DNA of 64,000 nt from Erysipelotrichaceae bacterium (GTDB lineage Bacteria; Bacillota_I; Bacilli_A; RFN20; CAG-826), in the NCBI GenBank assembly GCA_022777645.1, contig JALFFX010000055.1:2705-66704 (forward strand). The letters are read 5' to 3'. Every line of letters begins with the position of its first letter. The first letter of the stretch is position 1. The position numbers and the translations under genes are program-made. Below the pieces are notes generated by a model. The model worked only from the letters and a program-made list of their open reading frames with translations, was not told the origin of the DNA and did no database searches. Positions 22,369 through 44,536 of this stretch are shown here, piece by piece.

Positions 22369-24186
22369 ATGAAAATAATTATTTGGGATTTTGAAGTATT
22401 TAAACATGATGTCTTATTAGGGACAATTATTGTTGACGGACAAAATCAAACTGTTTATCAAACATGGGATGAAGATGAAATTAGAGCATTCTATCAAGAA
22501 CATAAAAATGACATTTTTGTTGGACATAATTCTACATATTATGATGACCTTATATTAGAAGCAATTGTTCAGCATAAAAGTGCTTATGAAAAATCACAAC
22601 AAATAATTAATGGTGGAATTAGACGTAAAGCAAAATTTCATTTATACTCATATGATTTAATGTCAGTAAGTAGAACACCATTTAGTTTAAAATTAACTGA
22701 ATTGATTTGTGGTAAAAACATTCATACAACAGACGTTGATTTTAATTTAGATAGACAATTAACTGATGAAGAAAAAAAGTTGACTGAAAGTTATAATTTA
22801 GATGATTTAAAACAAACATTATATAACTTCAATATGTTCTTCAATCAGTTTAAATTAAGAATGCAAATTATTCAAAAATATAATTTAGATTTAATGCATA
22901 ATTTGAGAGTCACAGGAACACAATTGGCAGCTAATGTTTTAGGCGCACACAATGACCCTTCATTAAAACATAAACCAATTCCTGCTGAAATATATCCGAC
23001 ATTAAGATTAGAAAATAAACGTCTTCGTGAATTTTATTTAAATGAAGAGTTTAGACAAGGTAAATCTGATATAATTAATGTCGCTGGAGCAGAATTGACA
23101 ATTGCTGCTGGTGGAATTCATTCAGCAATTAAAAAATTTCATGCACCAAAGATATTTTATGCAGATGTATCTGGCTATTATAATCTTGTTATGATGAACC
23201 TTGATTTATTACCAAGAACAATGCCGACTGAATCAAAAGAAGCATATGAGTTTATGTATCATGAACAATTACGTTTAAAGAAACATCCGGAACTTGCTGA
23301 TGAACGTTCAATGTATAAGACAATTTTGTTGTCAGTATTTGGAGCAATGAATAATGAATATACAGATTTCTATGACCCTTGGAAAGCATTATTAGTTACT
23401 ATCAGCGGACAATTATTCTTAGTTGATTTATTAGAAAAAATGGAAGGACTTGTCACAGTTGTGCAAGCAAATACAGATGGTTTAATGCTAATACCAAATG
23501 ACTGGAATGATGAACCAAAACTTATTAAAATAATTGAAGAATGGGAAGCACGTACAGGATTTGTTATTAAAAAGGAACATGTGTATAATTTATGGCAAAG
23601 AGATGTTAACTGTTATATTTGTCAAGATGAAAAAGGTGGAGTAATTTTTAAAGGTGATACATTCAGAAATTATGTTGTTGATGATGTTCAATATGCATCT
23701 TGTCGATTATTTGATTGTAAAGAACCACCAATTATTGCACAAGGAGTAGGAGATTATTTGTTATATGGTAAATTACCAGAAGATACAGTAAAAGAAAAAG
23801 CTCAAAACTTAATTTTATTCCAATATGCATGTAAAAAATTAAGTTATAATTATATGACTGAAGATAAGATATTGTTATATAAAACAGAAAGAGGTAAAAT
23901 AAAAGAAGAGTTAATTTCATCTAAAGTAGTCAAACCATTAAATCGTGTATTTGCTGCTAAACCAGAATATGTTGAAGGTTTGCCAATAATCACAATTCTT
24001 ACAAAACATAAAGATGCTAATGGTAAACATAGTACATCGAAAGTCGCAAACTTACCTGACTCAGTATTTATCTATAATGAAGATATAACAAATGCTTATG
24101 ATAAATTAAAAGATAAAATAAATTGGCAATATTATATTGACCGTATTTACGAAAAAATATTAGATTTCATGCCGGAAGGAGATTAA
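22369..24186 (+). CDS. family-B DNA polymerase, compact phi29-like type (605 aa)
   Basis: ExoI DFE, ExoII HNSTYYDD (HNxxFD-like), motif A YADVSGYYN, motif B KTILLSVFG, motif C ANTDGLML. Confidence 0.55.
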   Translation: MKIIIWDFEVFKHDVLLGTIIVDGQNQTVYQTWDEDEIRAFYQEHKNDIFVGHNSTYYDDLILEAIVQHKSAYEKSQQIINGGIRRKAKFHLYSYDLMSVSRTPFSLKLTELICGKNIHTTDVDFNLDRQLTDEEKKLTESYNLDDLKQTLYNFNMFFNQFKLRMQIIQKYNLDLMHNLRVTGTQLAANVLGAHNDPSLKHKPIPAEIYPTLRLENKRLREFYLNEEFRQGKSDIINVAGAELTIAAGGIHSAIKKFHAPKIFYADVSGYYNLVMMNLDLLPRTMPTESKEAYEFMYHEQLRLKKHPELADERSMYKTILLSVFGAMNNEYTDFYDPWKALLVTISGQLFLVDLLEKMEGLVTVVQANTDGLMLIPNDWNDEPKLIKIIEEWEARTGFVIKKEHVYNLWQRDVNCYICQDEKGGVIFKGDTFRNYVVDDVQYASCRLFDCKEPPIIAQGVGDYLLYGKLPEDTVKEKAQNLILFQYACKKLSYNYMTEDKILLYKTERGKIKEELISSKVVKPLNRVFAAKPEYVEGLPIITILTKHKDANGKHSTSKVANLPDSVFIYNEDITNAYDKLKDKINWQYYIDRIYEKILDFMPEGD

Positions 24187-24189
24187 TTT

Positions 24190-24585
24190 ATGGAAAAGAA
24201 ATCAAAAACTTATTTACTTTACGAACTTAGAGATGGACTCAAAGATGGTAGAGAAAAAAATCAAGAACTACTTGCTATCGAAGATGATTTTATTGAAACA
24301 GTTAAAGCAACTGGTAAATTCGATAAATTTGCATTCATGTTTGATAATTGGCTAGTAGAAAAACAAAGACTTGAAGAAAGTATTAATAGAGTTCCAAAAC
24401 GTATTGCTGCTTGTAATAAGTTAATTGAAATGCTTGAAAAGAACAACAGCAAGACACCAATGGTTGAGATGATTTTTAACTTAGTAATTGATGCTCTTGG
24501 AATTGCTGAAACAGAAGAAGAAACTCAAGAAGAACAAACAGCTGAAATTGAACTTGAACTTCCAAAGTTTGAAGAAAACAACTAA
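24190..24585 (+). CDS. hypothetical acidic protein
   Basis: GGAAGGAGATTAATTT-ATG. Confidence 0.55.
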   Translation: MEKKSKTYLLYELRDGLKDGREKNQELLAIEDDFIETVKATGKFDKFAFMFDNWLVEKQRLEESINRVPKRIAACNKLIEMLEKNNSKTPMVEMIFNLVIDALGIAETEEETQEEQTAEIELELPKFEENN

Positions 24586-24596
24586 TTAATAATAAT

Positions 24597-24630
24597 AAAA
24601 CTCACAATTGATTATATTGTGAGTTTTTAT
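24597..24630. terminator. bidirectional rho-independent terminator at the convergence of + and - transcription
   Basis: AAAA-CTCACAAT-loop-ATTGTGAG-TTTTT. Confidence 0.65.
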
Positions 24631-24664
24631 TATGCGATAATTTTGACATCATCTTTATTTCAAA

Positions 24665-26743
24665 TTATAAATCACCATAATAATTTATTGCAGTTCTTAA
24701 ACAAGATACAAAACCATCATCAATAGTTTTTATTTTACCAATTTGTTTTTCATCATAACGGACATTTTCAATGTCAGCGATTGTTTGCTTACAATGTTGA
24801 TTTATTACAACATATTGTGAGCCAAATGCTTTATTTAATAACATTGTTGACTCTTCATAACTATCTGGAGTATAACGTTCAATAATAATATCATTATCAG
24901 CATCATACATTCCTGTCATACTCTCAATTTTACTTGAGTCAATATATACATTCTTATCAGGTGTAAATTCTTTCATCATCTTTAAAGCATCTTTAATATT
25001 GGCTCTAAATTTAGTCTCACGAATAACTTGAATTTGCGGATAAAGACCATATTTAACACCAATGTCTAAAACTTTCCAAGTATCACCTGTTCTAGCAAAG
25101 AAAGTTGTACTATAATCATAATCTAATTTATCTTCAGTAACAATATTAAGGTCTGTGAATGCTTTACCATAAGCAGCATATTTTTGTCCTTGGAAAACAT
25201 ATAATATAAGCATAGTAAATGCATCGACAATATCATCATGTTGAACAAATGGAAAAGCAATTAGACGTTGCTTAAGATTTTGCATGTTTTCTGTAAGAAT
25301 ATATTTATTTTGAGTTGCGTCCCATTTAGTTCTAACAAATACAACATTACCTGACTGTACATAATCTGATGCATATTGCATACGCTCAGACTTGTCCATA
25401 TTACCTGGGTTCCAAGCTCTCATACCTGGAACATCATCTTGTAATTCTGTCATTAATGGTGACCCATTTGCTTTATCTTCAATTATATTTATTATTCCTT
25501 CATAAACATTTTCTAGTGACATCAAATATTGCTTAGAACGTGTAAAATTTTGTTTTGCTTCTAAACAATCGACAATATAAATTGTTTTATTAATCTTATA
25601 TGCAAGTAAAGAACCCAAAAAGTCATTTTTTGATTTGTCTTTGACAGGGAAATCATGAGAACCATATATTACTGTTGCAACATTTTCATCAATTCGATTA
25701 TTATGTGTGTCCCACCCTGGAACATTAATACAATCTTCTTCTTTTATCATATCTTCCTTGATAATAGTTTGGTCAGATGCAATTGGATTTTGTAAATATT
25801 GTGTTTCCCATACTGTTGGTCCAACAAGTGCTTTGATACGAGAATAATCACCAAAACGTTCAGGCCATAAATAATCATCTTGTTTATATTCAATAATATC
25901 ACCTGATATAGGACATATTAAATAAGTGTGCTTTTTAAATTGTGCAGGTAAAACAACAAATATAAATTGTGATGCTAACACTTCATCATTTTTAATACGT
26001 CCAGTGACATCGTTTGGAGCCAATCTTTGTTGAATATTGAGAATAATATATTTATCAGGATTATTAACACGAGAAGGCAATGTATTACGGAAGAACGACC
26101 AAGCATTATTCATTTCTTCTTTATCTTTTCTTGCTGCTTCAGCATTTGTCAAGTCGTCACATATAAGAATATCTGCGCCATAACCTGTCATAGCATCTCT
26201 GTTCATAGAATATAATTCTGCAGCACGATTGTCAACAAGTTTAAATGCTGAGTTTGTGACCAATTGTATGTCAGGGAAAAAGAATTTAAAACGCTCACTG
26301 TTTAATACACGTTGACGAGCAATATTCATTTCACCTGCTAAACCTTGAGTGTGAGATATTGATGCTAACTTGATAGGGTCATTTAGCCACATCCATACAC
26401 CACCGAGAACATTAAATGTTTTTGATTTTGTATGACGAGGAGGTAAGTTGATATTACCATTTTGTTTATTTTGACGAACATCAATTATTTCTATATCATC
26501 CCATGTTTCATCGCCGACTGGCTCAGGCAAAATGATTTCTTTTTCAGGTCCATCATAACCTAACCAAGGTCGACAAAGATATTGAAAAAATTCACAGTAA
26601 AATTGAATTATCTTACCATCAATAAATGGAGCAGGGTCAGCTTCACACCAAAAATCTTTTACAAATGAATAAAAGTCTTTTTGATAGAGTTGACGATATA
26701 GAATTTTTTGAGTTTGCGATAGTGTTTTGTAATTATATAACAT
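24665..26743 (-). CDS. terL: terminase large subunit
   Basis: N-terminal ATPase with P-loop-like LPPRHTKSKT and Walker B ILICDDL, plus a C-terminal nuclease-sized domain; 692 aa. Confidence 0.65.
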   Translation of the reverse strand: MLYNYKTLSQTQKILYRQLYQKDFYSFVKDFWCEADPAPFIDGKIIQFYCEFFQYLCRPWLGYDGPEKEIILPEPVGDETWDDIEIIDVRQNKQNGNINLPPRHTKSKTFNVLGGVWMWLNDPIKLASISHTQGLAGEMNIARQRVLNSERFKFFFPDIQLVTNSAFKLVDNRAAELYSMNRDAMTGYGADILICDDLTNAEAARKDKEEMNNAWSFFRNTLPSRVNNPDKYIILNIQQRLAPNDVTGRIKNDEVLASQFIFVVLPAQFKKHTYLICPISGDIIEYKQDDYLWPERFGDYSRIKALVGPTVWETQYLQNPIASDQTIIKEDMIKEEDCINVPGWDTHNNRIDENVATVIYGSHDFPVKDKSKNDFLGSLLAYKINKTIYIVDCLEAKQNFTRSKQYLMSLENVYEGIINIIEDKANGSPLMTELQDDVPGMRAWNPGNMDKSERMQYASDYVQSGNVVFVRTKWDATQNKYILTENMQNLKQRLIAFPFVQHDDIVDAFTMLILYVFQGQKYAAYGKAFTDLNIVTEDKLDYDYSTTFFARTGDTWKVLDIGVKYGLYPQIQVIRETKFRANIKDALKMMKEFTPDKNVYIDSSKIESMTGMYDADNDIIIERYTPDSYEESTMLLNKAFGSQYVVINQHCKQTIADIENVRYDEKQIGKIKTIDDGFVSCLRTAINYYGDL

Positions 26744-26879
26744 TTATCTCTCCAATATTTTATTATATCAAAAATTAACTATAAATTAAATATATCATCA
26801 GTTATTTCTGATATTAAAATAAGGCATTTTTAGATGCAGAACTATTCAGCTAGTTATATCTAACATTATTACAGACTGT

Positions 26880-26960
26880 TAATATTTCATTAGAAGATTT
26901 TAATAAATTAAAAGTGTATAAATGTAATTATACACAATTATTAAGTTTAAATATCATTGA
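26880..26960. promoter_or_regulatory. inverted repeat GTGTATAAATGTAATTATACAC upstream of terL
   Basis: 8-bp arms, located in the 290-bp leader of terL. Confidence 0.3.
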
Positions 26961-27029
26961 GCAGATAGTGTAGTTTATGATAAACATTTTTGAAGTCGTC
27001 AGGTGTGACATATACCTTTTCTGGCTTAA

Positions 27030-27242
27030 TCATGACGCATCGCTCCTTTCGTTATCGTGTTCTTTGATTTCTATTTTATGATTAGTTTCTTCAAACTCAT
27101 CTTGATTTCTTGAATAAGGAATAATCGCTTCTTCGTATTCAACCCCCGTTGCGATTTCTCTTACATAAAAGTTGCTATCGCTATAAATCTTTTTAAGTGT
27201 TTTTCCATCAAGTTCATTGATAAAAGTTTCACATACTAACAT
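27030..27242 (-). CDS. hypothetical protein
   Basis: 70-aa ORF. Confidence 0.4.
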   Translation of the reverse strand: MLVCETFINELDGKTLKKIYSDSNFYVREIATGVEYEEAIIPYSRNQDEFEETNHKIEIKEHDNERSDAS

Positions 27243-27246
27243 ATAA

Positions 27247-28200
27247 CTATTCTCCTAATTCACTTAAACCTTTAATCTTACTTGCATAAGTCGACCAGTT
27301 TGTGGCTGTTTTATAACTTTCTACTAAATTATCAGGTACATAGATAAACCCTTCAGTGGTACTTGTCTTGATTGGCGTATAGCTAAAGACATTTGAACTT
27401 CCCAACGTTGCAACTTCATTTGCTCTTAAAATCAAGGTTGTTAATTTTTCACAATAATAAAATACTTCACTTCCTCCAACACGTTTTGCTTTTGGCAAAT
27501 CAACAGTTTTTAAATTTAAGCATTTATTAAAAGCCCAACCACCGATTTGCGTTACTTCTGGAAAAACTACTGTTGTTAATTTTTCATCCCCATCAAATGT
27601 ATTGTTTCCAATAGTTTTTAATTGTGGGAGATTTATTGTTACCAAATGTCTGCAATAACGAAATTCACTATTAGAGGTTGAAGTTAATAACGGAAAATCT
27701 ATTGTAGTCATTTGTCCTGCATTAAATGCATAGCCGCCAACTTTGGTTGCTTTGGGGAAAATAGCTTTTTCCCCTCTATAGCCATTAAATGCATAACTCT
27801 CAATTGTAGTCACTTCTGGAAAATTATATGATGTTAATTTATAACAATTAGAAAAGGCCCAATCACCAATAGTTGTAATATTGGTTGGAGAAAAATTTGC
27901 GATTGCTAAATTTTCACATTGATAGAAAGCATAAATAGGAATAGTAGAAATATTTGGAAGATTAACGGTTGTTAAGTTATTACATCGATAGAATGAATAA
28001 GGTCTAATACTTGCCACATTACTTGTTATTTCGGTTATGCTTCCGTCAATAAGTGCGTCAATATTGCCACCACCTATTTCAATACTGTCTATTTCGTTTG
28101 CCATATTTATTGGCTGTATCGTTCCGGTTGTGCCTTTTTTAGAACGGATAGAATTAGCAATATCACTAAATACTGCGTTTAGATTTATTTCGCTTGCCAT
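27247..28200 (-). CDS. leucine-rich-repeat protein (BspA/TpLRR-like); tail/receptor-binding associated
   Basis: ~10 tandem ~23-aa units of the form TTIxxYAFxxCxxLxxVxFP; stop/start abuts the fibre gene. Confidence 0.6.
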   Translation of the reverse strand: MASEINLNAVFSDIANSIRSKKGTTGTIQPINMANEIDSIEIGGGNIDALIDGSITEITSNVASIRPYSFYRCNNLTTVNLPNISTIPIYAFYQCENLAIANFSPTNITTIGDWAFSNCYKLTSYNFPEVTTIESYAFNGYRGEKAIFPKATKVGGYAFNAGQMTTIDFPLLTSTSNSEFRYCRHLVTINLPQLKTIGNNTFDGDEKLTTVVFPEVTQIGGWAFNKCLNLKTVDLPKAKRVGGSEVFYYCEKLTTLILRANEVATLGSSNVFSYTPIKTSTTEGFIYVPDNLVESYKTATNWSTYASKIKGLSELGE

Positions 28201-28201
28201 A

Positions 28202-29947
28202 TTAGAACTCCTTCGTCAAAACATTCGCAATTGCTTGTTGAATAGCATTATCTACATAAGTAATATCAGCTTTTGTTTCTTGCAAATGCTTTATGTTATC
28301 AGCATTTGCTTTTCCTTTATTACCAGGATATGCAGTTGAACCTGTTTCTCCAAGTATAAGTTGTTTAGAATCATTAATTAGTGTACATTTAACAATTGCT
28401 GATTTATGTCTTAAATAGCCTGTAGAAAATGATATAGAAGTAAAATAAATTGAATCATTAAGATATAAAATACCTTGAGTATTTGAATGTTCAACATCAA
28501 ATGTTTCACCTTCTGGGAAATCAATTCCAACACTTGCTTCTTCAGGGGTATAAGAAATGTTACTTGTGTACAAATATTCACCATCAATAGTATATACAGC
28601 AATTAAAGGATACATAATTCCATTACTTGTGTAGTTAGCAAATACACAGTTATCACTAATAGTCATACGAGTAAAGCTTACACCGTCAATTATTTTTAAT
28701 TTGAATGTACCAAGTAATGTGTTATTAGTTGTTGCACTAGCATCATTAGCATAAATGTAAACTGTATCAGTACCATCATATGGTTTTACATATAAACGAT
28801 TTAAATTTTTAGAATAGACTACATCTTGAAGTGGAGTAGTTGAATTAATTTCTGCAAATTTAAATCCAGTATATACTTCCCAATTAGCACCAAAGGTACC
28901 ATCTGCATTAATCGTGACTGATTTTTCAACACCACCATTTTGGAAAATAATTAATTTACCATCTTTAACGGTTAAACCACAACATTGTTCAAGTGTTGCT
29001 GATTCATTTAATTCTTTAGTAGCAATTAAATTACCATTTAAATCATATGAACAGGCAACAATATCTCTTTCTTGTTCTGCCCACTTTGATATGATTCCAA
29101 AAATATATTTTCCATCACTTGCAAGAGATTGCATATATGGATAGCCAGGCACTTCTTGAGTGTAGTTTCTAAATTTTGTTGGAGTGTTTGTTGTAAGAAC
29201 TTTACTATTACCAACTTCAATATATGTAGACCCAGTCCATCTATAAAGTTTATTATCATCTACTGTAACATAAAATGTACTTGCAGAACCTACTGTAGGA
29301 AGATTTAAAAATGAAGATACTTCTAAAAAAACATTCATTTTAGTTTTTAAACCATCATCAACATATTTTTTACTTGTAGCACAATCATCTGTGGCAGGAG
29401 CTAAAGGAACAACAACATTTCCATCCCCTGTTCTTTGAACTATACCATTATATCCAACTTGTTTTTGAAGAGGATAAATTTTATCAGCACCATTATAAAC
29501 ACCATAAAGATAATCTCCTTGATGGGAAACTACACGATTAACTTTACCATTTAATGCATGATTTACATATGTTTTTTCAGCATAATTACTTAGGTCAACA
29601 ATGCTACTTAATTTATCCCATTTCCAATCTGTTTCATCTTCATTCCAAATGATAGCAACATTATCTCCTTGTGTTACTTGAACTGAACCTTTTGTCAATG
29701 TTCCTGTACCTGATATATCATAAACATAGCCATTCATTTCTTTTGTAATGGTTAAACTATTTAAGATATCAACTGTTACTGTTCCTTGTGGTTTATAAAC
29801 TCTTGAAATAGCAGAAGCAATAGAATTATCTACATAAGTTTTTTCAGCATAGTAATTTGCAATATTTTTTCCGTTGCCGTCTCTAGTAGCAGCTTCAACT
29901 TTAATAGGATTACCATTTGGGTCTCTTAAAACAGTATATATAGCCAT
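28202..29947 (-). CDS. tail fibre / receptor-binding protein
   Basis: N-terminus MAIYTVLRDPNGNPI...YAEKTYVDNSI is typical of phage fibre anchors; YAEKTYVNHAL repeat; beta-rich; C-terminal ITYVDNAIQQAI. Confidence 0.5.
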   Translation of the reverse strand: MAIYTVLRDPNGNPIKVEAATRDGNGKNIANYYAEKTYVDNSIASAISRVYKPQGTVTVDILNSLTITKEMNGYVYDISGTGTLTKGSVQVTQGDNVAIIWNEDETDWKWDKLSSIVDLSNYAEKTYVNHALNGKVNRVVSHQGDYLYGVYNGADKIYPLQKQVGYNGIVQRTGDGNVVVPLAPATDDCATSKKYVDDGLKTKMNVFLEVSSFLNLPTVGSASTFYVTVDDNKLYRWTGSTYIEVGNSKVLTTNTPTKFRNYTQEVPGYPYMQSLASDGKYIFGIISKWAEQERDIVACSYDLNGNLIATKELNESATLEQCCGLTVKDGKLIIFQNGGVEKSVTINADGTFGANWEVYTGFKFAEINSTTPLQDVVYSKNLNRLYVKPYDGTDTVYIYANDASATTNNTLLGTFKLKIIDGVSFTRMTISDNCVFANYTSNGIMYPLIAVYTIDGEYLYTSNISYTPEEASVGIDFPEGETFDVEHSNTQGILYLNDSIYFTSISFSTGYLRHKSAIVKCTLINDSKQLILGETGSTAYPGNKGKANADNIKHLQETKADITYVDNAIQQAIANVLTKEF

Positions 29948-30043
29948 TATGCATCAACCTCCTCTACAACGATTTCATCATTTTTGCGAGCACAATAGAT
30001 GATTCTATCTTCAAGTTCAATTTTTTTCATAAATCTCTCCTTT

Positions 30044-30322
30044 TTAATCAGTTTCTTCGATTGTTTCTGTTGATGCTTGAAATAAATTAACAGTAGCAAC
30101 TGTTGCATTACTAGCATTTTTTAATGTAATAGTTAAATAACCATTTGATACAGAAGCACTTCCAGATGCAATTACTGTTTTATAAACTGCAGATGCTAAA
30201 GGAATTAATGTATCACTATTTGAAATATCAGTTGTCGTTGCAGTCACAGTAGTCGGAATGCGATAATCATAAATGTTGTAAGTAGTACCAGATTTAACTA
30301 CTTGAATAACATAATCATTCAT
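30044..30322 (-). CDS. hypothetical protein (T/S-rich, Ig-like?)
   Basis: 92-aa ORF. Confidence 0.4.
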   Translation of the reverse strand: MNDYVIQVVKSGTTYNIYDYRIPTTVTATTTDISNSDTLIPLASAVYKTVIASGSASVSNGYLTITLKNASNATVATVNLFQASTETIEETD

Positions 30323-30383
30323 AATACTTTTTCTCCTAACTTCTTATTTTTATTTTATAATAAATTTTATCAAAATGCATCAA

Positions 30384-30680
30384 TTATTCTTGCCATACAT
30401 TAAATGTAATATCAGCATCATTATTTGCAAAGCACATAAAGTAATATAAACCATCACTCATTCCTGCAAACACTGCAATTGCTAAATTTTTATCATCGTC
30501 ATTTGTTAAAATCATTGGTAAATGAAAATTGATACTACCAGTTTGAGATGATAAAGGTTGTAATGTAAATACTGATGTGCAACTAAGTGTTACTGTTCCA
30601 ACGTTTCTCATATTTAACTTTAATGCTCCTTCAACATTTGTTTTGAAAAATTTTGCAAATTCTACTAATTTAATACTCAT
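30384..30680 (-). CDS. hypothetical protein
   Basis: 98-aa ORF. Confidence 0.4.
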   Translation of the reverse strand: MSIKLVEFAKFFKTNVEGALKLNMRNVGTVTLSCTSVFTLQPLSSQTGSINFHLPMILTNDDDKNLAIAVFAGMSDGLYYFMCFANNDADITFNVWQE

Positions 30681-30683
30681 ATA

Positions 30684-33125
30684 TTATTTTTCTTCACGAA
30701 ATACTTTAATAATATGTTCAGCACCAAATGTATCACTACCTTCGTCTTCAGGATGTGTTTCAACAATAATTTCAACATCTAATCCTTTTTTATTAAAGAA
30801 TTTTTCAATTTCATTATCTAACCAGATGTGTTCTTTCCAGTCCATCATATCAACGTCAATTGAGAGATAATCTTCTCCATCAACTTTGTTGTTAACAAAG
30901 TATACATTTTCACTGAAATCAGTATTTAATGAACGTAAATGTTTTTCTAATTCTTTAGCAAAATCTTTCAATTCTTCATTAACTTTTATATATTTACTTG
31001 TATCTTTTAAATATTTCTTTGGAAGTAAAATACACATTACAACATTATTTTCCCATTCAAGTATTTCTGTAAAGCCATCTTGTTTAAGCGCTTTAGCAAT
31101 ATCTTCAAAAATATGGTCTTCATAATATTTTGGTTCTATACCAAGCTCTTCAGCAACACTTTGCATTTCGTAATTCATGTCATCTTCATAATTGATTGTA
31201 TATTCTTCATTTGCATCAAAAATTTCTAACATATCTTTATCAATACGATATTTGAAATCAAATAATGAGTCATATTCTTCACCATCAATTATACTTTTTT
31301 CATTGAGTTTTGTGAGTAATGCTTCTAAATGAGGGAATTTACCACTAAATTGAGCATCTTGTACTAAATTTTCATTTAATTGTTTATTTTTCATAATACT
31401 ATCCTTCTTTCTTCTTCTAGAATTATGTATACTTTGAGGCAATGAATAATTACCAGATAACACATCATCAGCAGTTAATGATTTAAACACATGTCTGCAA
31501 TATGGTCTTGTGCTTAAAAATGTAGGTTCACCTATAATATCTTGCACAGTTTGAATGTTGTGTTCTTTTATATATTTTTCAATTGCTTCAATTTTCTTTT
31601 TTTCTTTTGTCGGATTATATGCTGATTTCCATTTTGCATCAACATATATTTTCCCTTGTTTACTGATATGGTCATCTGCACTATCATCATGTTTACTACA
31701 AGCAAAGAAAATTTTTGGATTACCATAATTACGATATTTTTTAATTTCTTCTTCAGTCATCTTTGTAATAACTTCATCAGTTAAACTATCTTTGAATGAC
31801 ATTTCTTCACTTTCAACAATTAGTTTAAGAGTTTTTAATTTATCAAGATAACCTTTATGTCTAAATTCTTTAAAAATTTGATTTTCTTTACTATATTCAC
31901 CTTCAGTATCTAAACCTGAACGTCTAAATGAATATATTTTATCAATTAATTTATTAATGCTTTCTAGAGAAGGTTTATTTAAAATGCTGTTATATTCCTT
32001 AACTAATTCATTAACTTCATTAGAAACGTCAATTTGAATGATTTCTTCCTTACTTGGCTCTTTTATCCAACCTGTATATATAGAATATATACCTTTTGAA
32101 AATAAATCAGATGTATCATTTTGTACATATACTTCTACATTAATATTATTAAATTTAATATCATATGCATCATTAAACATAGATTTATATGCATCATAAA
32201 TTTTCATCATGTTTTCATCTGACTCATCAACAATGATATGAACATCAAAATCTGACTTTGATGTATAATTATATGATGCATTGCTGCCGATGACAATTAC
32301 ATCACTTATTGTAATATCAATATCTGCATCAGCTAACCATTCTTTATATTTTTCAACAATTAACTCAATATGCTCTTTAATTTCAGGTTTTAATGTACCA
32401 TCTTCATTCCACAATTTTGGATTGAGAGTTTTTCTAATTGCATCATGAACACTGACTGAATCATGCAATTCTTCATAACAATCTAATAAGAATTCTCTAA
32501 ATGATGGTTTGTATTTCTTTCCATTTGCATTTATTTCTTTTAATTCATTAATCAGTGCGATATTTAATCTATATAAATCATCAGCAAATTCTTTTATTTC
32601 ATCAACTGGTCGATATTCGATTAAACCTAAACCATTAGCATAAAATTGTTTTGCTGTTTTATTATATTCAATATTATTTTTAACTTCTTCATTTAATTGT
32701 TTAACAGCTGATGAAATAAATCTTACTAAATTCCAACCAAAGTTTGTAAGATTATTTACTTTATTACTTGTTTCTGTATTTTCTTCAGATGAATCCCAAT
32801 CAAGACGTAAAATTCTTTTTAATTGATTTAACTCATAATCATGTATTACATCTTCAATTTTACTATCTGTTGTTCGTTTTTCAAGTTGTTGTTTAAAATA
32901 TTGAACCCAATAAAAATTACTAAAACCTGATACTTTGAAAAAATTATCATTCACATCAGCTTTAAGTATTCTTTTTAAAAAAGATGCTTTTTCTTCAGGT
33001 AAATCTAAAAAACAAACATGATGATTTCTATCAACTAATTCATCATGATAACCATATTGTTTATAAAGTTTGGCAAATTGAACCATTCCAAACTGATAAT
33101 TATTTACTAAACATACAACTTTCAT
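30684..33125 (-). CDS. large protein with central Pol-beta-type nucleotidyltransferase motif (candidate virion-associated effector)
   Basis: start set at MKVVCL (TAATATG coupling with the upstream gene); IVIGSNASYNYTSKSDFDVHIIVD is the GS-x10-D-x-D minimal NTase signature. Confidence 0.5.
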   Translation of the reverse strand: MKVVCLVNNYQFGMVQFAKLYKQYGYHDELVDRNHHVCFLDLPEEKASFLKRILKADVNDNFFKVSGFSNFYWVQYFKQQLEKRTTDSKIEDVIHDYELNQLKRILRLDWDSSEENTETSNKVNNLTNFGWNLVRFISSAVKQLNEEVKNNIEYNKTAKQFYANGLGLIEYRPVDEIKEFADDLYRLNIALINELKEINANGKKYKPSFREFLLDCYEELHDSVSVHDAIRKTLNPKLWNEDGTLKPEIKEHIELIVEKYKEWLADADIDITISDVIVIGSNASYNYTSKSDFDVHIIVDESDENMMKIYDAYKSMFNDAYDIKFNNINVEVYVQNDTSDLFSKGIYSIYTGWIKEPSKEEIIQIDVSNEVNELVKEYNSILNKPSLESINKLIDKIYSFRRSGLDTEGEYSKENQIFKEFRHKGYLDKLKTLKLIVESEEMSFKDSLTDEVITKMTEEEIKKYRNYGNPKIFFACSKHDDSADDHISKQGKIYVDAKWKSAYNPTKEKKKIEAIEKYIKEHNIQTVQDIIGEPTFLSTRPYCRHVFKSLTADDVLSGNYSLPQSIHNSRRRKKDSIMKNKQLNENLVQDAQFSGKFPHLEALLTKLNEKSIIDGEEYDSLFDFKYRIDKDMLEIFDANEEYTINYEDDMNYEMQSVAEELGIEPKYYEDHIFEDIAKALKQDGFTEILEWENNVVMCILLPKKYLKDTSKYIKVNEELKDFAKELEKHLRSLNTDFSENVYFVNNKVDGEDYLSIDVDMMDWKEHIWLDNEIEKFFNKKGLDVEIIVETHPEDEGSDTFGAEHIIKVFREEK

Positions 33126-33126
33126 A

Positions 33127-33618
33127 TTAATCGTAATTCCCACTTCCTGGAACAGGATTACTTGTGACAACAAACATTGATGCAAGAGATTTTGTTGCTA
33201 ATAAATTCATTAAATCTCTACCAAATGCACTTTGGTTCCACCATACTTTATCATCACCAGAAATCATGCTTCTATCTAAATCATATGTTTTGCTAAATCC
33301 ACCAACACTAGCAGATGTCATAATGCCACCAGTCGTAGGACTGCCACCAGCAATATCTGCTAAGCTTGTTGCACCAGATTTTACTTTTGCTTGAGCTTGA
33401 CCAATTATCCATGCATAATGAGCAATTGCTAAACTCATTGCATATTTCCAGTCAACACCAAAAATAGAATAGAAAATTTTATTATTTGCAATTGGATATA
33501 AATTATTAAAAAGTGTATCTATATTAGAGACATTTGTAAATTGAGGCATCCAAAACAAAAAATCTTCTTTTGTGAATTCAGGATTTTCTCTATCAATAAG
33601 TGTTCCTAAAATAGCCAT
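33127..33618 (-). CDS. hypothetical protein
   Basis: 163-aa ORF. Confidence 0.5.
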   Translation of the reverse strand: MAILGTLIDRENPEFTKEDFLFWMPQFTNVSNIDTLFNNLYPIANNKIFYSIFGVDWKYAMSLAIAHYAWIIGQAQAKVKSGATSLADIAGGSPTTGGIMTSASVGGFSKTYDLDRSMISGDDKVWWNQSAFGRDLMNLLATKSLASMFVVTSNPVPGSGNYD

Positions 33619-33623
33619 TCGAA

Positions 33624-34055
33624 TTAACCTCTAGAGACTCTTTCTTTTAATTCCTTTAATTCTTTTAAATGCTCTTCTTCTTCACCTTTAATATGTTCGT
33701 AAATACCAACAGCTTCTTCAGATTGAGCTTCTTTAATTGCTTTGTCATAAGCTTCAATTGCTTCTACTTCATCTTCAATAAGAGCATCTAATGTAGTAGT
33801 ATCTGCATCATTCATGCAAGAGTCAAACATAACTTTTTCATGAATTTTTTCTTCATCATCATTTTCTTCTTTTTCCCAAAGTAAACCAATAGGACCAAAA
33901 TTACTGATTCCTTCATAAATTTCTTTGACTTTATCAGACTTTTGTAACTTTTTAATCATCATTTCTTTTGAAGTCTTAACTTCATCAAATTTAACATATT
34001 GAAGTTCATCATTATTTGTAATAACATATAACTTTTCCATAAATAAATACCTCAT
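33624..34055 (-). CDS. hypothetical Glu-rich helical protein (weak ferritin-like ExxH pattern)
   Basis: EAIEAY...EHIKGEEEEHL. Confidence 0.45.
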   Translation of the reverse strand: MRYLFMEKLYVITNNDELQYVKFDEVKTSKEMMIKKLQKSDKVKEIYEGISNFGPIGLLWEKEENDDEEKIHEKVMFDSCMNDADTTTLDALIEDEVEAIEAYDKAIKEAQSEEAVGIYEHIKGEEEEHLKELKELKERVSRG

Positions 34056-42301: not shown

Positions 42302-44536
42302 TTATATAATTTCACCCTTTTCTTCTGCTATATTTAATTGTTCTTTAATTTCTTTTCTGAGTCGACCTTTTGACTTAGATTTTTCTTCCTCATTTTCTGA
42401 GTCTTCAGTATCTTCTCTATTTAATCTTTTCAATGCATTTTGTAATTTATGCATTGCTTTTTGATAAAAGTGTTGTGAATGTTCTTCATTAGATACAGAG
42501 TCTTTCCATTGTCTAATATCACCTAAACTTAAATTTGAGTCATGCCATACTTCAATATAATTTGTATTAGAATTTTTAATAGTCATTTGATTATCTACTT
42601 TAATTCCTAATTTTTCTAATGCAGAAATTAATCTTATTATATTTGCTTTTGCCATATAAGGTGTGACTTCTTCAGCATATCTGATAACAATATTTTGTCC
42701 TCTTGTACCGAAATCAATTTTTACATCTTCTCCCAATATATCATGAATTGATTCTATAATACGTGGGTCGAGTGCAGCTGCGTCACCTGTGTATTCCTTT
42801 TTAACTATATTATTTAGATATTCACGCTTCCAAGTTTCAACAGCAGCAATTAAATCTTCATATGTTTTGAAATTTCTACTAAATATTCTTTCTTGGTCAC
42901 TTCCATCTCTATTTTCTTCAATAATAGAAACATATAAATCTCTTGGTTGTTCAATACTTCCATGACCATAAATGAATATTGTAATTACTTTTCCATTTGG
43001 AGCAATTCTTACTGAGTTAATTGACTCTCCGCGTTTTTTCATTCTTAATACTAACTCTTCAATATCTAAATCTTGCAAATGACCATTAAACATTTCTTTA
43101 GATAAAGAATCGTTTACTATTTCTTTTTTATATTCAGGTGATAATCTACCTGTATCATATGAATTAAGATATGCAATTAGATAACCGCCCTGACCTTTCA
43201 CTCCATAAATATCAGCTGATGTGTACTCGTTTTCTTTATCTTCACTTTCTGTTTTTTCAAGAATTTCTTTTGCTTTCTTTTCAGCTTCTTCATATGTTGC
43301 AAATTCATTATCAGAATCTGATTTAAACCAGTCGTCGTTTCTATAAGAAGTTGCATTATATATTATTCCATCACGTTTAACAAGTCTATGATGTTCAACT
43401 CTAAGATGGAAATAATCATATTCTTCAGATTTAGGGTCTTTAACAATCACTCTATTTGTCATTTTATCTTTAATAGAGTCTTTCACTTCTGATTTTGTGA
43501 TTATAGCCCATTCAATATTTTCTTCATCTTTTTTAAACAACACAGTTTTACCTGTTTCAAGACTTTCAGCATAAATCACATTATTGACAATTTTACTAAC
43601 TTTATATTGTTTACCTTGTTTACCAAACTCTTGAATTAATGTTCCTTTTGAAACAGAATCTCTCATTTCAATTGTCATTGGTTTAGTATCACCAATTTCA
43701 CCTAAAGGAGAAGTGAAACTTTTCTTATAAACAATATATGGTTCAAATTCTTTAACAATTGTTGTATAGATTTTTTCACCATTTGCTTTAACAAATTCTT
43801 TTTCTTCAGGAGTTAATTGTCTATTAAATCTGTTAACTAAATCATGGAGAATAAGTTGGTTAATCCACTTTTTAGCAGTATCAGGTAATTCATAATCACT
43901 ATTTGCTTGTGTAAAACAAATATCATTCATAGCATGTAATAGTTTTTCAGAATCGAATGATGCTTTTTTATCTTTAATTGATTCAATGCCCCATTCTTTC
44001 TTTTCTTTTTTACTATCTTGAATGCGAGCAATGCCTGCTCTTCCTTGTTCACATAATGCAACATGGTTTCCACGAATATTAATTTGTGAATAATTTCCTT
44101 TTCCATCATCTTCAATATCACAATCATATCCACATGATAAATCAGTTCTTACACCATTTTCAATATCTTCAATTGTTGGTTGGTCAGTAATCAATAAATC
44201 ACCCAACATGACATCTTGACCTTCTGATTTTCCACGATGAATATTAAATGTATGACCAACAGCTAAATCAGCATAATTTTCTGGTCCAACATCAACATCA
44301 GGATGCTCAACACAAATTGGTTTATTCTCAAATGATGCCATTGTTAAATCATCAAATACTTCAGTTGCTTTTCTATCAACATCAACAATTTCATCTGACT
44401 CTTTATCTGGGAAAATTTCAGATAATAAATATTGTTGTTTGCCTGTACGAGATAAAACTGCATCTTTACAAATAAGATACCCTTCAGGTGTTTTATATTT
44501 ATGTTCGCTTAATTTAATAGTCGCTAACATTTTCAT
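42302..44536 (-). CDS. head morphogenesis protein (DUF2213-like N-terminus; prohead protease/scaffold candidate)
   Basis: 744 aa at the head of the capsid module; N-terminal ~190 aa of DUF2213 type. Confidence 0.4.
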   Translation of the reverse strand: MKMLATIKLSEHKYKTPEGYLICKDAVLSRTGKQQYLLSEIFPDKESDEIVDVDRKATEVFDDLTMASFENKPICVEHPDVDVGPENYADLAVGHTFNIHRGKSEGQDVMLGDLLITDQPTIEDIENGVRTDLSCGYDCDIEDDGKGNYSQINIRGNHVALCEQGRAGIARIQDSKKEKKEWGIESIKDKKASFDSEKLLHAMNDICFTQANSDYELPDTAKKWINQLILHDLVNRFNRQLTPEEKEFVKANGEKIYTTIVKEFEPYIVYKKSFTSPLGEIGDTKPMTIEMRDSVSKGTLIQEFGKQGKQYKVSKIVNNVIYAESLETGKTVLFKKDEENIEWAIITKSEVKDSIKDKMTNRVIVKDPKSEEYDYFHLRVEHHRLVKRDGIIYNATSYRNDDWFKSDSDNEFATYEEAEKKAKEILEKTESEDKENEYTSADIYGVKGQGGYLIAYLNSYDTGRLSPEYKKEIVNDSLSKEMFNGHLQDLDIEELVLRMKKRGESINSVRIAPNGKVITIFIYGHGSIEQPRDLYVSIIEENRDGSDQERIFSRNFKTYEDLIAAVETWKREYLNNIVKKEYTGDAAALDPRIIESIHDILGEDVKIDFGTRGQNIVIRYAEEVTPYMAKANIIRLISALEKLGIKVDNQMTIKNSNTNYIEVWHDSNLSLGDIRQWKDSVSNEEHSQHFYQKAMHKLQNALKRLNREDTEDSENEEEKSKSKGRLRKEIKEQLNIAEEKGEII

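What the first reader, a model, noticed from the sequence alone, without database searches (positions are those of the whole stretch)
27247..29947. BspA/TpLRR-type leucine-rich-repeat protein abutting the tail-fibre gene
The 317-aa product of 27247..28200 consists of ~10 tandem ~23-residue units (…TTIxxYAFxxCxxLTxVxFP…), the hallmark of LRR_5 / BspA-like repeats. These are best known from bacterial and protozoan surface adhesins, not from phage tails. Its start (ATG 28200-28198) abuts the stop of the 581-aa fibre gene (28202-28204), so co-translation as a distal receptor-binding or adhesin module is likely.
Basis: seen in the sequence. Interest (0 to 1): 0.6.

Follow-up and report, generated by a model that had tools for sequence, protein, structure and literature searches.

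The report
Swappable leucine-rich-repeat head on phage fibre
A gut phage encodes, right after a fibre gene, a leucine-rich-repeat protein whose repeat core is swapped like a cassette between related phages; it is most likely a separately made binding tip, part of a three-gene module shared by many uncultured phages that has never been studied.

Summary
ORF 27247..28200 (-) encodes a 317-aa Pfam LRR_5 protein (E=1.9e-41, 22-residue period, AF2 pLDDT 92). Its ATG lies 1 nt after the stop of the 581-aa fibre-like ORF, and an AAGGAG box sits inside the fibre's 3' end.

- They are two polypeptides, translationally coupled, not one co-translated product.
- The protein was not recently captured from a host. 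It belongs to a large phage-borne family: more than 1300 database hits, 172 IMG/VR loci and 75 genome loci.
- It has three parts: a conserved N-terminal helical adaptor (..IAxxIRxKxG..), an exchangeable LRR core, and the generic LRR_5 C-cap.
- Nucleotide identity to relatives is 86-95% in the arms and undetectable across the core.
- Adaptor-bearing proteins almost always follow a fibre-type protein that ends in a helix plus an aromatic residue (29/32 against 4/43).
- The same adaptor also carries non-LRR heads.

Most likely the LRR protein is a detachable distal receptor-binding head docked on the fibre tip. This is inferred from comparative evidence and has not been shown experimentally.

The parts
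28202..29947 (-). 581-aa fibre-like protein. It has an N-terminal shaft (about res 1-250), a beta-rich body (about res 243-556) that is absent in short variants, and a conserved C-terminal tail.
   Evidence: ORF. No Pfam hit. Residues 5-250 are shared with proteins carrying Pfam Phage_fiber_rpt, Phage_tail_C or Peptidase_S74. P0124 and P0125 keep the shaft and the last 18-25 aa but lack the body. The AF2 model is unusable (pLDDT 34.8).
28205..28279 (-). C-terminal tail of the fibre (res 557-581, ..KADITYVDNAIQQAIANVLTKEF), the proposed docking peptide ('plug') for the LRR adaptor.
   Evidence: The same tail ends otherwise unrelated upstream proteins in L017, L021 and L022. In other lineages the analogous tails end ..GGSY*..ENGTY* or ..GGEW*. 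They co-occur with the adaptor in 29/32 cases against 4/43, and again in 29/32 cases in an independent adaptor-seeded set.
28198..28213 (-). Coupling junction: AAGGAG (28213-28208), stop TAA (28204-28202), one spacer base, ATG (28200-28198).
   Evidence: Sequence read. The string TTCTAATATGGCAAG is conserved in L017, L021 and L022. No terminator-like site lies between 26500 and 30800.
28066..28200 (-). N-terminal helical adaptor of the LRR protein (res 1-45, MASEINLNAVFSDIANSIRSKKGTTGTIQPINMANEIDSIEIGGG).
   Evidence: I18, R19 and K21 are invariant in A1. AF2 predicts helices at 4-22, 30-38 and 47-52. Identity to P0015/18/22 is 82-86% here against 23-25% in the core. The motif IADAIRxKTG also heads non-LRR proteins in IMG/VR.
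27415..28065 (-). Exchangeable LRR_5 repeat core (res 46-262, nine or ten 22-residue units), the proposed ligand-binding surface.
   Evidence: Pfam LRR_5. There is no detectable nucleotide similarity to L021, L022 or L024 across this stretch, while both flanks are 72-95% identical. Against L298, dS is 0.115 here and 0.60-0.68 in the flanks, and omega is 0.38 against 0.05. Repeat number varies among relatives, giving proteins of 206-317 aa.
27250..27414 (-). C-terminal cap of the LRR domain (res 263-317, ..GFIYVPDNLVESYKTATNWSTYASKIKGLSELGE).
   Evidence: G284, Y287, V288, P289, L292, K297, A299, T300, W302 and A306 are invariant. The cap aligns weakly (E 0.14-0.22) to the extreme C-termini of the Bacteroides LRR_5 structures 4fd0 and 4fdw, so it is probably a generic LRR_5 cap and not phage-specific.
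27030..27242 (-). 70-aa acidic partner protein (MLVCETFINELDGKTLKKIYSDSNFYVREIATGVEYEEAIIPYSR...). It is the third gene of the module and its function is unknown.
   Evidence: It starts 4 nt after the LRR stop. Homologues lie directly downstream (gap -19 to +17 nt) of LRR genes in 45/78 viral and 27/48 genome-contig ORFs, or 62/104 non-redundant. It has no Pfam, PHROG or NCBIfam family. A profile search of 1.84e9 representatives finds 60 clusters at E<=1e-3, nearly all stand-alone proteins of 55-90 aa.

Best explanation
The 317-aa protein is the detachable distal head of a phage fibre. It is translated as a separate polypeptide, coupled to the 581-aa fibre gene. Its N-terminal three-helix adaptor (..IAxSIRxKKG..) docks non-covalently on the fibre's conserved C-terminal amphipathic tail (..YVDNAIQQAIANVLTKEF). 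Its LRR_5 solenoid then presents a binding surface for a structure on the host cell, most probably a receptor of an uncultured low-GC Bacilli host. The adaptor, the C-cap and the neighbouring genes are conserved at the DNA level, so they act as homology arms, and the LRR core is exchanged between phages as a host-range cassette. The 70-aa protein encoded 4 nt downstream is a partner specific to LRR heads, most likely a folding or assembly chaperone or a small cap bound to the LRR C-terminus. Shown: LRR_5 identity and fold, gene coupling, the mosaic cassette structure, the statistical co-occurrence of tail, adaptor and small partner, and the tail-module position in other phages. Inferred: presence in the virion, physical docking of adaptor on tail, receptor binding, and the role of the small protein.
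For: Identity and fold: Pfam LRR_5 E=1.9e-41. AF2 pLDDT is 92.3. The best solved matches are the gut-bacterial LRR_5 proteins 4gt6, 4fs7 and 4h09 and TpLRR 6mlx.
Coupling: TAA-t-ATG with an SD box.
Cassette: amino-acid identity to P0015/18/22 is 82-86% (N-terminus), 23-25% (core) and 69-78% (C-cap). Nucleotide identity to L021 is 89% at 28261..28077 and 88.6% at 27366..27069, with nothing in between. L017 is 95% identical down to 28062 and then diverges. Against L298, dS is 0.115 in the core and 0.60-0.68 in the arms.
Docking pair: upstream proteins of unrelated body share the same tail and junction. The adaptor co-occurs with an aromatic-ended tail in 29/32 cases against 4/43, Fisher p=3e-13, across at least 9 lineages, and again in 29/32 cases in an adaptor-seeded set. 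A fibre relative with a different tip (Pfam Phage_tail_C) is followed by a different downstream gene. L024's LRR lacks the adaptor, and its upstream protein lacks the tail.
The adaptor is head-independent: it heads proteins with LRR_5, DUF285, Gly_rich_2 and Metallophos domains, and proteins with no known domain.
Tail context elsewhere: L087 and L075 run TMP, tail protein, collagen-like fibre, LRR, small protein, then endolysin. In L120 and L161 a tail fibre precedes the LRR and small genes. Phage NatCom_3357 runs TMP, Dit and other genes, then a 1673-aa protein ending in LRR_5 plus cap, then a 179-aa LRR, then holin and endolysin.
Fusions: two L025 paralogues join a fibre-type N-terminus (..IYPKTSADVVEY..) directly to the LRR.
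There is no N-terminal hydrophobic signal (sequence), which fits assembly in the cytoplasm.
Against: There is no proteomic, structural or adsorption evidence; no cultured phage carries the module.
The 581-aa protein has no Pfam or PHROG fibre assignment of its own and its AF2 model failed, so its position on the virion is unknown.
The module lies about 16 kb from the baseplate genes and next to TerL.
In some large phages (L027, PV036455) family members sit among nucleotide-metabolism or replication genes.
The co-occurrence statistics are not corrected for phylogeny, and about half of the positive cases belong to one subgroup (L077-L107).
The fibre has its own large beta-rich body, which could be the real receptor binder.
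Confidence: 0.6

Rival explanations
1. The LRR protein is displayed on the virion, but it binds something other than the infection receptor, such as mucin glycans, host epithelium or non-host surfaces. This would be a 'bacteriophage adherence to mucus' type of decoration, analogous to Ig-like Hoc or BACON domains. BspA-type LRRs in bacteria and protists are known for binding animal matrix proteins.
For: The closest solved relatives are surface proteins and adhesins of gut and oral bacteria. The fibre has its own beta-rich body that could serve as the true RBP. The upstream fibre in L027 has a weak Pfam head-fibre hit. Some phages carry up to five paralogues.
Against: Cassette swapping among near-identical phage backbones, and the position directly after Tal and the fibre and before lysis genes in siphoviruses, are the classic signature of host-range determinants. 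The same adaptor carries enzyme-like heads such as Metallophos, which is typical of RBPs and depolymerases.
Confidence: 0.12
2. The LRR protein, with or without the 70-aa protein, is a non-structural assembly factor for the fibre. It would be a Tfa- or T4-gp38-type chaperone that binds the fibre's C-terminus during folding and is absent from the mature virion.
For: The gene lies immediately downstream of a fibre gene and is translationally coupled to it. It is specifically associated with the fibre's C-terminal tail. Known tail-fibre chaperones are encoded at this position (own knowledge).
Against: At 200-470 aa, with a hypervariable repeat core and conserved ends, it looks like a binding head and not a chaperone, because a chaperone should co-vary with the fibre body it folds. 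The LRR domain is also found fused covalently to the C-termini of large tail proteins and to fibre N-termini. There are no Pfam Caudo_TAP or gp38 hits. The small 70-aa protein is the better chaperone candidate.
Confidence: 0.13
3. The LRR protein acts inside the infected cell, in host takeover or anti-defence by protein-protein binding. Its position next to a fibre gene would then be an accident of mosaic gene order.
For: It has no signal peptide. Family members in PV036455 and L027 lie among helicase, methylase, NrdD and dUTPase genes. LRRs are generic protein-binding scaffolds.
Against: Even in L027 the LRR gene is preceded by a fibre-like protein with the tail motif and followed by the small partner. 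The association with aromatic-ended fibre tails is strong. The family sits in the tail-module position in many (pro)phages.
Confidence: 0.07
4. It is a lysogenic-conversion 'moron': a BspA-like bacterial surface adhesin carried by the phage for the benefit of the host cell.
For: BspA-family annotation would suggest this. Many family members lie in bacterial genome contigs.
Against: There is no signal peptide, lipobox or anchor (sequence). The NCBIfam adhesin HupY/LrrG model scores 25 bits against a cut-off of 1250. The gene is translationally coupled within the late structural operon. The window shows no lysogeny genes near it.
Confidence: 0.03

Closest known systems
Pfam LRR_5 / BspA-TpLRR-type leucine-rich-repeat proteins (solved examples 4gt6, 4fs7, 4h09, 4fd0, 6mlx TpLRR, 4cp6 PcpA)
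   Same: The repeat type is the same: a 21-23-residue unit, the ..xTxIxxxAFxxCxxLxxhxhP consensus, a solenoid fold, and a probably homologous C-terminal cap (I-x-VP..V..YK.A..W). Evidence.
   Different: There is no signal peptide, lipobox or cell-surface anchor. It carries a phage-specific N-terminal helical adaptor, is encoded in a phage late operon behind a fibre gene, and is paired with a small partner gene. It is much shorter than most bacterial BspA proteins.
Separately encoded fibre-tip adhesins: gp38 of T2- and S16-type phages on the gp37 long tail fibre (own knowledge)
   Same: It is a separate polypeptide encoded directly after the fibre gene. A conserved N-terminal part is proposed to attach to the fibre tip, and a variable part determines binding. 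The variable part is exchanged between phages.
   Different: There is no sequence or fold relationship: an LRR solenoid here, a glycine-rich-motif beta structure in gp38. Attachment and virion presence are not shown here. The hosts are gut Bacillota, Bacteroidota and Actinomycetota, not Enterobacteria.
Modular tailspike/RBP systems with conserved N-terminal anchor domains and exchangeable C-terminal heads (e.g. Klebsiella, G7C and CBA120-type branched RBPs; lactococcal BppU-BppL) (own knowledge)
   Same: The design principle is the same: a conserved anchor, a variable head, recombination at the anchor-head boundary, several heads per phage possible (five tandem paralogues in L025), and enzymatic as well as non-enzymatic heads on the same adaptor.
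   Different: The adaptor here is a helical peptide of about 45 residues with an IRxKxG signature and no Pfam family. Its proposed socket is the last ~20 residues of a fibre ending in an aromatic residue, not a T4-gp10-like or BppU domain.
Tail-fibre assembly chaperones encoded downstream of fibre genes (lambda/Mu/P2 Tfa, T4 gp57A) (own knowledge)
   Same: The 70-aa protein is small and acidic, lies immediately downstream and is translationally coupled, as many fibre chaperones are.
   Different: It has no homology to Caudo_TAP or any other library family. It tracks the LRR head type, not the fibre or the adaptor. Its function is untested.
PHROG families phrog_35892 and phrog_18805 (unknown function) and BFVD/UniProt 'Leucine-rich repeat protein' entries from gut viromes
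   Same: The window protein matches them directly (E=7.7e-24 and 5.2e-17; Foldseek E down to 2.9e-12).
   Different: Those entries carry no functional annotation. The adaptor, core and cap anatomy and the partner gene are not recorded there.

Membership tests
Pfam LRR_5 (PF13306, BspA-type LRR) | Whole-protein HMM score above the gathering threshold | tested here: met
   141.4 bits against a 27.7 cut-off, E=1.9e-41, two stretches.
Pfam LRR_5 (PF13306, BspA-type LRR) | Tandem repeats of about 21-23 residues | tested here: met
   The self-similarity peak at lag 22 exceeds every one of 500 shuffles. Nine or ten units can be read in the sequence.
Pfam LRR_5 (PF13306, BspA-type LRR) | LRR solenoid fold like the solved LRR_5 proteins | tested here: met
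   AF2 pLDDT is 92.3 with 10 evenly spaced strands. Foldseek probability is 1.00 to 4gt6, 4fs7, 4h09 and 6mlx (E 1.8e-8 to 1e-5). TM-scores are only 0.28-0.42, probably from differing curvature and length. A profile search of the PDB gives 4fs7 at E=9.7e-59.
BspA-family bacterial cell-surface adhesins | Export and anchoring signals (signal peptide or lipobox, cell-wall/T9SS/choline-binding anchor) | tested here: not met
   The N-terminus MASEINLNAVFSDIANSIRSKKG has no hydrophobic h-region. The C-terminus ends in the LRR cap with no anchor domain (sequence; Pfam).
BspA-family bacterial cell-surface adhesins | Match to a curated adhesin model (NCBIfam HupY/LrrG equivalog) | tested here: not met
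   25.1 bits against a cut-off of 1250.
Phage distal fibre head / receptor-binding protein (functional class) | Encoded in the late structural operon, adjacent to a fibre or tail gene | tested here: met
   In the window it lies 1 nt after the fibre gene, on the same strand as the sheath, MCP and portal genes. In relatives it follows TMP, a tail protein and a fibre.
Phage distal fibre head / receptor-binding protein (functional class) | Conserved attachment part plus a variable binding part with mosaic exchange | tested here: met
Phage distal fibre head / receptor-binding protein (functional class) | Present in the virion and binds the host receptor | not testable with these tools
   Needs virion proteomics, cryo-EM and adsorption assays. 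No cultured relative was found.
T2/S16 gp38-type tip adhesin (homology) | Sequence or fold homology to gp38 | tested here: not met
   Pfam reports only LRR families and the fold is an LRR solenoid. The resemblance is functional and architectural only.
Tail-fibre assembly chaperone (Tfa/Caudo_TAP) for the LRR protein or the 70-aa protein | Match to chaperone families | tested here: not met
   There is no such hit in Pfam, PHROGs or NCBIfam for either protein.
Phage tail fibre (for the 581-aa protein) | Match to a fibre family, or shared domains with recognised fibres | tested here: inconclusive
   It has no direct Pfam hit, only a weak phrog_14839 match of unknown function. Residues 5-250 are 37-71% identical to proteins that carry Phage_fiber_rpt, Phage_tail_C or Peptidase_S74. 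Its C-tail matches those of collagen-like tail fibres upstream of LRR heads. The AF2 model failed.

The most novel reading that the evidence does not exclude
Gut phages from at least three bacterial phyla share a universal 'plug-and-socket' system. A fibre C-terminal peptide (amphipathic helix plus a terminal aromatic residue) accepts any head that carries a ~45-residue IRxKxG adaptor, whether LRR_5, DUF285, glycine-rich, phosphoesterase or another type. Heads can be daisy-chained, because heads that themselves end in a tail-like extension are followed by further adaptor-bearing heads, as in L025. LRR_5 heads additionally need a dedicated 55-90-aa partner from an undescribed family. LRR solenoids would then be a major and so far unrecognised receptor-binding fold of phages.
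Probability: 0.35. Interest if true: 0.8.

Novelty: new variant of a known kind. Interest (0 to 1): 0.62.

Why it matters
Receptor-binding proteins decide which bacteria a phage can infect, and for most uncultured gut phages they are unknown.

If LRR_5 heads are receptor binders, they add a fold (LRR solenoid) not represented among solved phage RBPs. They would also mark the host-range determinant in hundreds of metagenomic phages and prophages of Clostridia, Bacteroidales, Bacilli and Coriobacteriia.

The conserved tail-adaptor junction gives precise and portable boundaries for RBP swapping. That is useful for host prediction and for engineering phages against unculturable or hard-to-target gut bacteria.

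The small partner protein is a new family with a clear, testable association.

The module is also shared between standard-code and TGA-recoded phages, which bears on how host-range cassettes move between phages with different genetic codes.

Tried and rejected
- Megablast of 24000-34000 against GenBank phages gave no match. tblastn of the fibre against phages also gave none.
- The AF2 model of the fibre built from 16 homologues had pLDDT 34.8 and was unusable, so no fold search was run on it.
- Close-relative scans of IMG/VR with the single LRR protein or the fibre returned only distant or fragmentary loci. An alignment query worked.
- An alignment of adaptor peptides was too variable for the search for related loci. 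A degenerate DNA pattern for IADAIRxKTG was used in its place.
- tblastn of adaptor peptides against GenBank phages gave no match even at E=10, so that search is uninformative.
- I looked for Rosetta-stone fusions of fibre tail and adaptor. The apparent internal adaptor motifs were mostly ORF-calling artefacts from upstream alternative starts.
- The promoter and terminator scan of 26500-30800 found fewer promoter-like sites than shuffles and no terminators.
- Literature searches (BspA/LRR_5 with phage, tail or host range; Heliusvirales) found no functional study of phage LRR_5 proteins. They returned only an annotation line in a Vibrio jumbo phage and an unrelated MITE note.
- I considered a TGA=Trp reading of the window. 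It was rejected because there are no in-frame TGA codons in 10304 codons of the long ORFs, and reading through the small gene's TGA adds only a junk-like tail.
- Programmed frameshift fusion of fibre and LRR was rejected. The frame offsets and overlaps differ among lineages (+1, -1, -4, -14 and others) and an SD box is present.
Full report
**1. Observation**

The window is a low-GC (about 28%) phage genome segment. Early and replication genes lie on the + strand up to 24585. A long late operon lies on the - strand from about 62 kb down to 24665. PHROG matches in the late operon include:
- portal, 55149-56906
- baseplate wedge, 46453-48210
- head protease, 42302-44536
- major head protein, 37916-39007
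- tail sheath, 35061-36437
- DUF4054 virion protein, 33127-33618
- large terminase, 24665-26743

 So this is a myovirus-type phage.

Within this operon the 581-aa ORF (28202..29947) and the 317-aa ORF (27247..28200) are intact. They are separated by TAA-t-ATG, with AAGGAG 7 nt upstream of the ATG.

The 317-aa protein scores 141 bits on Pfam LRR_5 (E=1.9e-41). It has a 22-residue periodicity that no shuffle reaches. It folds in AF2 (pLDDT 92.3) into three N-terminal helices, a solenoid of about ten strands and a helical C-cap. The best solved matches are LRR_5 proteins of gut bacteria, TpLRR and PcpA; no phage protein is among them.

**2. Anatomy of the LRR protein**

A database search gave 1318 hits at E<=1e-5, mostly unnamed proteins of 200-350 aa. 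An alignment of 25 of them (A1) shows three parts.
- **Adaptor.** The N-terminal ~45 residues are conserved, with I18, R19 and K21 invariant (..DIAnAIRxKxG..).
- **Core.** A variable number of LRR units follows.
- **C-cap.** The C-terminus is nearly invariant (..GYIYVPdxLVxsYKxATNWSxYA..). It aligns weakly (E 0.14-0.22) to the extreme C-termini of the Bacteroides LRR_5 structures 4fd0 and 4fdw, so it is probably a generic LRR_5 cap.

The close relatives P0015, P0018 and P0022 are 82-86% identical to the window protein in the adaptor and 69-78% in the cap, but only 23-25% in the core.

At the DNA level:
- L021 is 89% identical over 28261..28077 (fibre tail plus adaptor) and 88.6% over 27366..27069 (cap plus downstream gene), with nothing detectable between.
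- L017 is 95% identical down to 28062 and then diverges.
- L024 matches only 27444..27071.

Against the 92%-identical L298 the pattern is inverted. dS is 0.60-0.68 in the arms and only 0.115 in the core, while omega is 0.05 in the arms and 0.38 in the core. The core therefore has a separate and more recent history than its flanks.

The LRR core is an exchangeable cassette. Its breakpoints lie near residue 45 and between residues 250 and 280.

**3. The fibre and the junction**

The 581-aa protein has no family hit of its own and its AF2 model failed. Its residues 5-250 are shared with proteins carrying Phage_fiber_rpt, Phage_tail_C or Peptidase_S74. Short variants (P0124, P0125) keep the shaft and the last 18-25 residues but lack the beta-rich body at 243-556.

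The upstream proteins of LRR genes in L017 (834 aa), L021 (155 aa) and L022 (627 aa) differ in their bodies. All end in ..YVDxA(I/V)QxAIxNVLxx(E/D)F*, and all share the DNA junction TTCTAATATGGCAAG.

L024's LRR has a different N-terminus, and its upstream protein lacks this tail. Fibre relatives that end in the Pfam Phage_tail_C tip are followed by a different, non-LRR gene.

**4. Generality**

An alignment-based scan found 172 family loci in IMG/VR (80 kept) and 75 in species-representative genomes. The genome hits include isolates of Olsenella, Eubacterium, Anaeromassilibacillus, Bacteroides, Hoylesella and Flavonifractor.

Among non-redundant LRR ORFs with an abutting upstream ORF, the results were:
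- 29 of 32 with the adaptor motif follow a protein ending in an aromatic residue (..GGSY*, ..ENGTY*, ..GGEW*, ..EF*).
- Only 4 of 43 without the motif do so (Fisher p=3e-13; at least 9 lineages; not corrected for phylogeny).

A DNA-pattern scan for IADAIRxKTG returned 113 further IMG/VR stretches. The motif sits at residues 10-35 of separate proteins, and 29 of 32 of their upstream ORFs again end in an aromatic residue. Most of these proteins lack the LRR cap. Ten were sampled against Pfam:
- 2 carry LRR_5
- 2 carry DUF285
- 1 carries Gly_rich_2
- 1 carries Metallophos
- 1 gave only weak sub-threshold Pfam hits
- 3 gave no hit

 The adaptor and tail pair is thus a general connector, and LRR_5 is one head type among several.

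**5. Evidence that this is a distal tail or fibre component**

- In siphovirus-type loci the order is TMP, tail protein, collagen-like tail fibre, LRR, small protein, then endolysin (L087, L075). L120 and L161 have a tail fibre, then the LRR, then the small protein.
- In phage NatCom_3357 a 1673-aa protein ending in LRR_5 plus cap lies between the TMP/Dit genes and the holin and endolysin genes.
- In L025, an 85-kb phage, five LRR genes stand in tandem. Two carry a fibre-type N-terminus fused directly to the LRR. The non-terminal ones end in tail-like extensions and are followed by adaptor-bearing paralogues.

Some family members lie outside structural modules. In the window the module is next to TerL and far from the baseplate genes.

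**6. The third gene**

The 70-aa ORF (27030..27242) begins 4 nt after the LRR stop. Homologues of 55-90 aa follow LRR genes directly in 45 of 78 viral ORFs and 27 of 48 genome ORFs, or 62 of 104 non-redundant. The consensus is MIkTE..r.dG..L.RTYSD.G..I....TG..Y.EAIDp....rtYtETD.

L024's LRR, which lacks the adaptor, still has the partner. Almost none of the non-LRR adaptor-bearing heads do. The partner therefore tracks the LRR head and not the connector.

It matches nothing in Pfam, PHROGs or NCBIfam. A profile search of 1.84 billion representatives finds 60 clusters.

**7. Mechanism proposed**

The LRR protein is a separately translated, exchangeable distal head. Its helical adaptor docks on the fibre's C-terminal tail, and its LRR surface binds a host-cell structure. 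The small protein is an LRR-specific chaperone or cap. Confidence is about 0.6.

The rivals are a mucus or other non-receptor adhesin, a Tfa-like chaperone, an intracellular effector, and a moron. Each is weighed in the rival-explanations section of this report.

**8. Comparison and novelty**

The protein is a true member of the LRR_5 repeat family. It is not a BspA-type exported adhesin, because it has no export or anchor signals and scores 25 bits against a 1250 cut-off on the NCBIfam adhesin model.

In function it resembles gp38-type tip adhesins and anchor-plus-head tailspike systems, without homology to either.

LRR_5 proteins are already present in phage databases without function. I found no study of them.

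I rate this a new variant of a known kind: a modular phage RBP with an LRR head, an undescribed connector and an undescribed partner gene.

**Host hints**

A fragment 96% identical to the fibre is deposited as 'Candidatus Onthovivens sp.'. L021 is binned as a Bacilli MAG. L021 and L017 read TGA as Trp, whereas the window does not.

Noticed in passing
L021 (JAEDHQ010000011.1, 'Bacilli bacterium MAG140') and L017; window as a whole: Close relatives that share the module arms at about 89-95% nt identity read TGA as Trp. L021 has 27 in-frame TGA against 48 TGG in 5071 codons and no TGA stops. The L017 fibre has two TGA codons aligned to Trp in the window protein. The window has no in-frame TGA in 10304 codons of its long ORFs, and 3 of its 70 main ORFs end in TGA. 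The cassette is therefore shared between standard-code and recoded phages.
   Followed up: partly
L025 6740-10912 (ena ERZ27292094 k141_284671, 84.7 kb): Five LRR_5 genes stand in tandem. The first two have fibre-type N-termini. The non-terminal ones end in tail-like extensions (..DFILGGES*, ..EEYGYA*, ..EEYGYE*), each followed by an adaptor-bearing paralogue. The last has no extension. This could be a daisy chain of heads.
   Followed up: partly
window 30684..33185 (-): An 833-aa ORF in the structural operon has a weak Pfam Polbeta nucleotidyltransferase hit (E=0.006) and a match to phrog_36119 (unknown function, E=3.7e-33). Its listed TTG start overlaps the DUF4054 gene by 59 nt, so the true start is probably further downstream.
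   Followed up: no
window 42302..44536 (-): A 744-aa protein has head-maturation-protease matches only in its first ~260 residues. It carries a long extra C-terminal part, possibly a protease-scaffold fusion or another fusion.
   Followed up: no
window 29947..30029 (-): A 27-aa ORF (MKKIELEDRIIYCARKNDEIVVEEVDA) has a stop that overlaps the fibre start (TAATG). It was not called in related contigs, so its status is unknown.
   Followed up: no
window 24585..24665: The + strand early/replication block (DNA polymerase-like 605 aa, dUTPase, thymidylate synthase, dCMP deaminase per L014) and the - strand late operon converge here. TerL is the last gene of the late operon, and the order of structural genes is unusual: portal, then baseplate, then protease, then MCP, then sheath, then fibre, then TerL.
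   Followed up: partly
P0124, P0125 (relatives of the window fibre): These are short fibre variants of 340 and 434 aa. They keep the shaft and the last 18-25 residues but lack the beta-rich body of about 310 aa (window residues 243-556). The body is thus an optional insertion, and the C-terminal tail is retained regardless.
   Followed up: partly
small-partner family (e.g. L087 6738-6944, L092, L075): Many copies of the small partner end in ..EALxIITGG* or ..AYDILxGE*. This is a helix plus Gly-Gly ending that resembles the fibre tails (..LGGSY*). The window copy has an acidic tail in that position. The meaning is unknown.
   Followed up: no
window 27030..26743: A 287-nt gap without an ORF lies between the small partner gene (TGA stop) and TerL. 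Reading TGA as Trp would add only a hydrophobic, junk-like 34 residues. No promoter or terminator signal stands out.
   Followed up: partly
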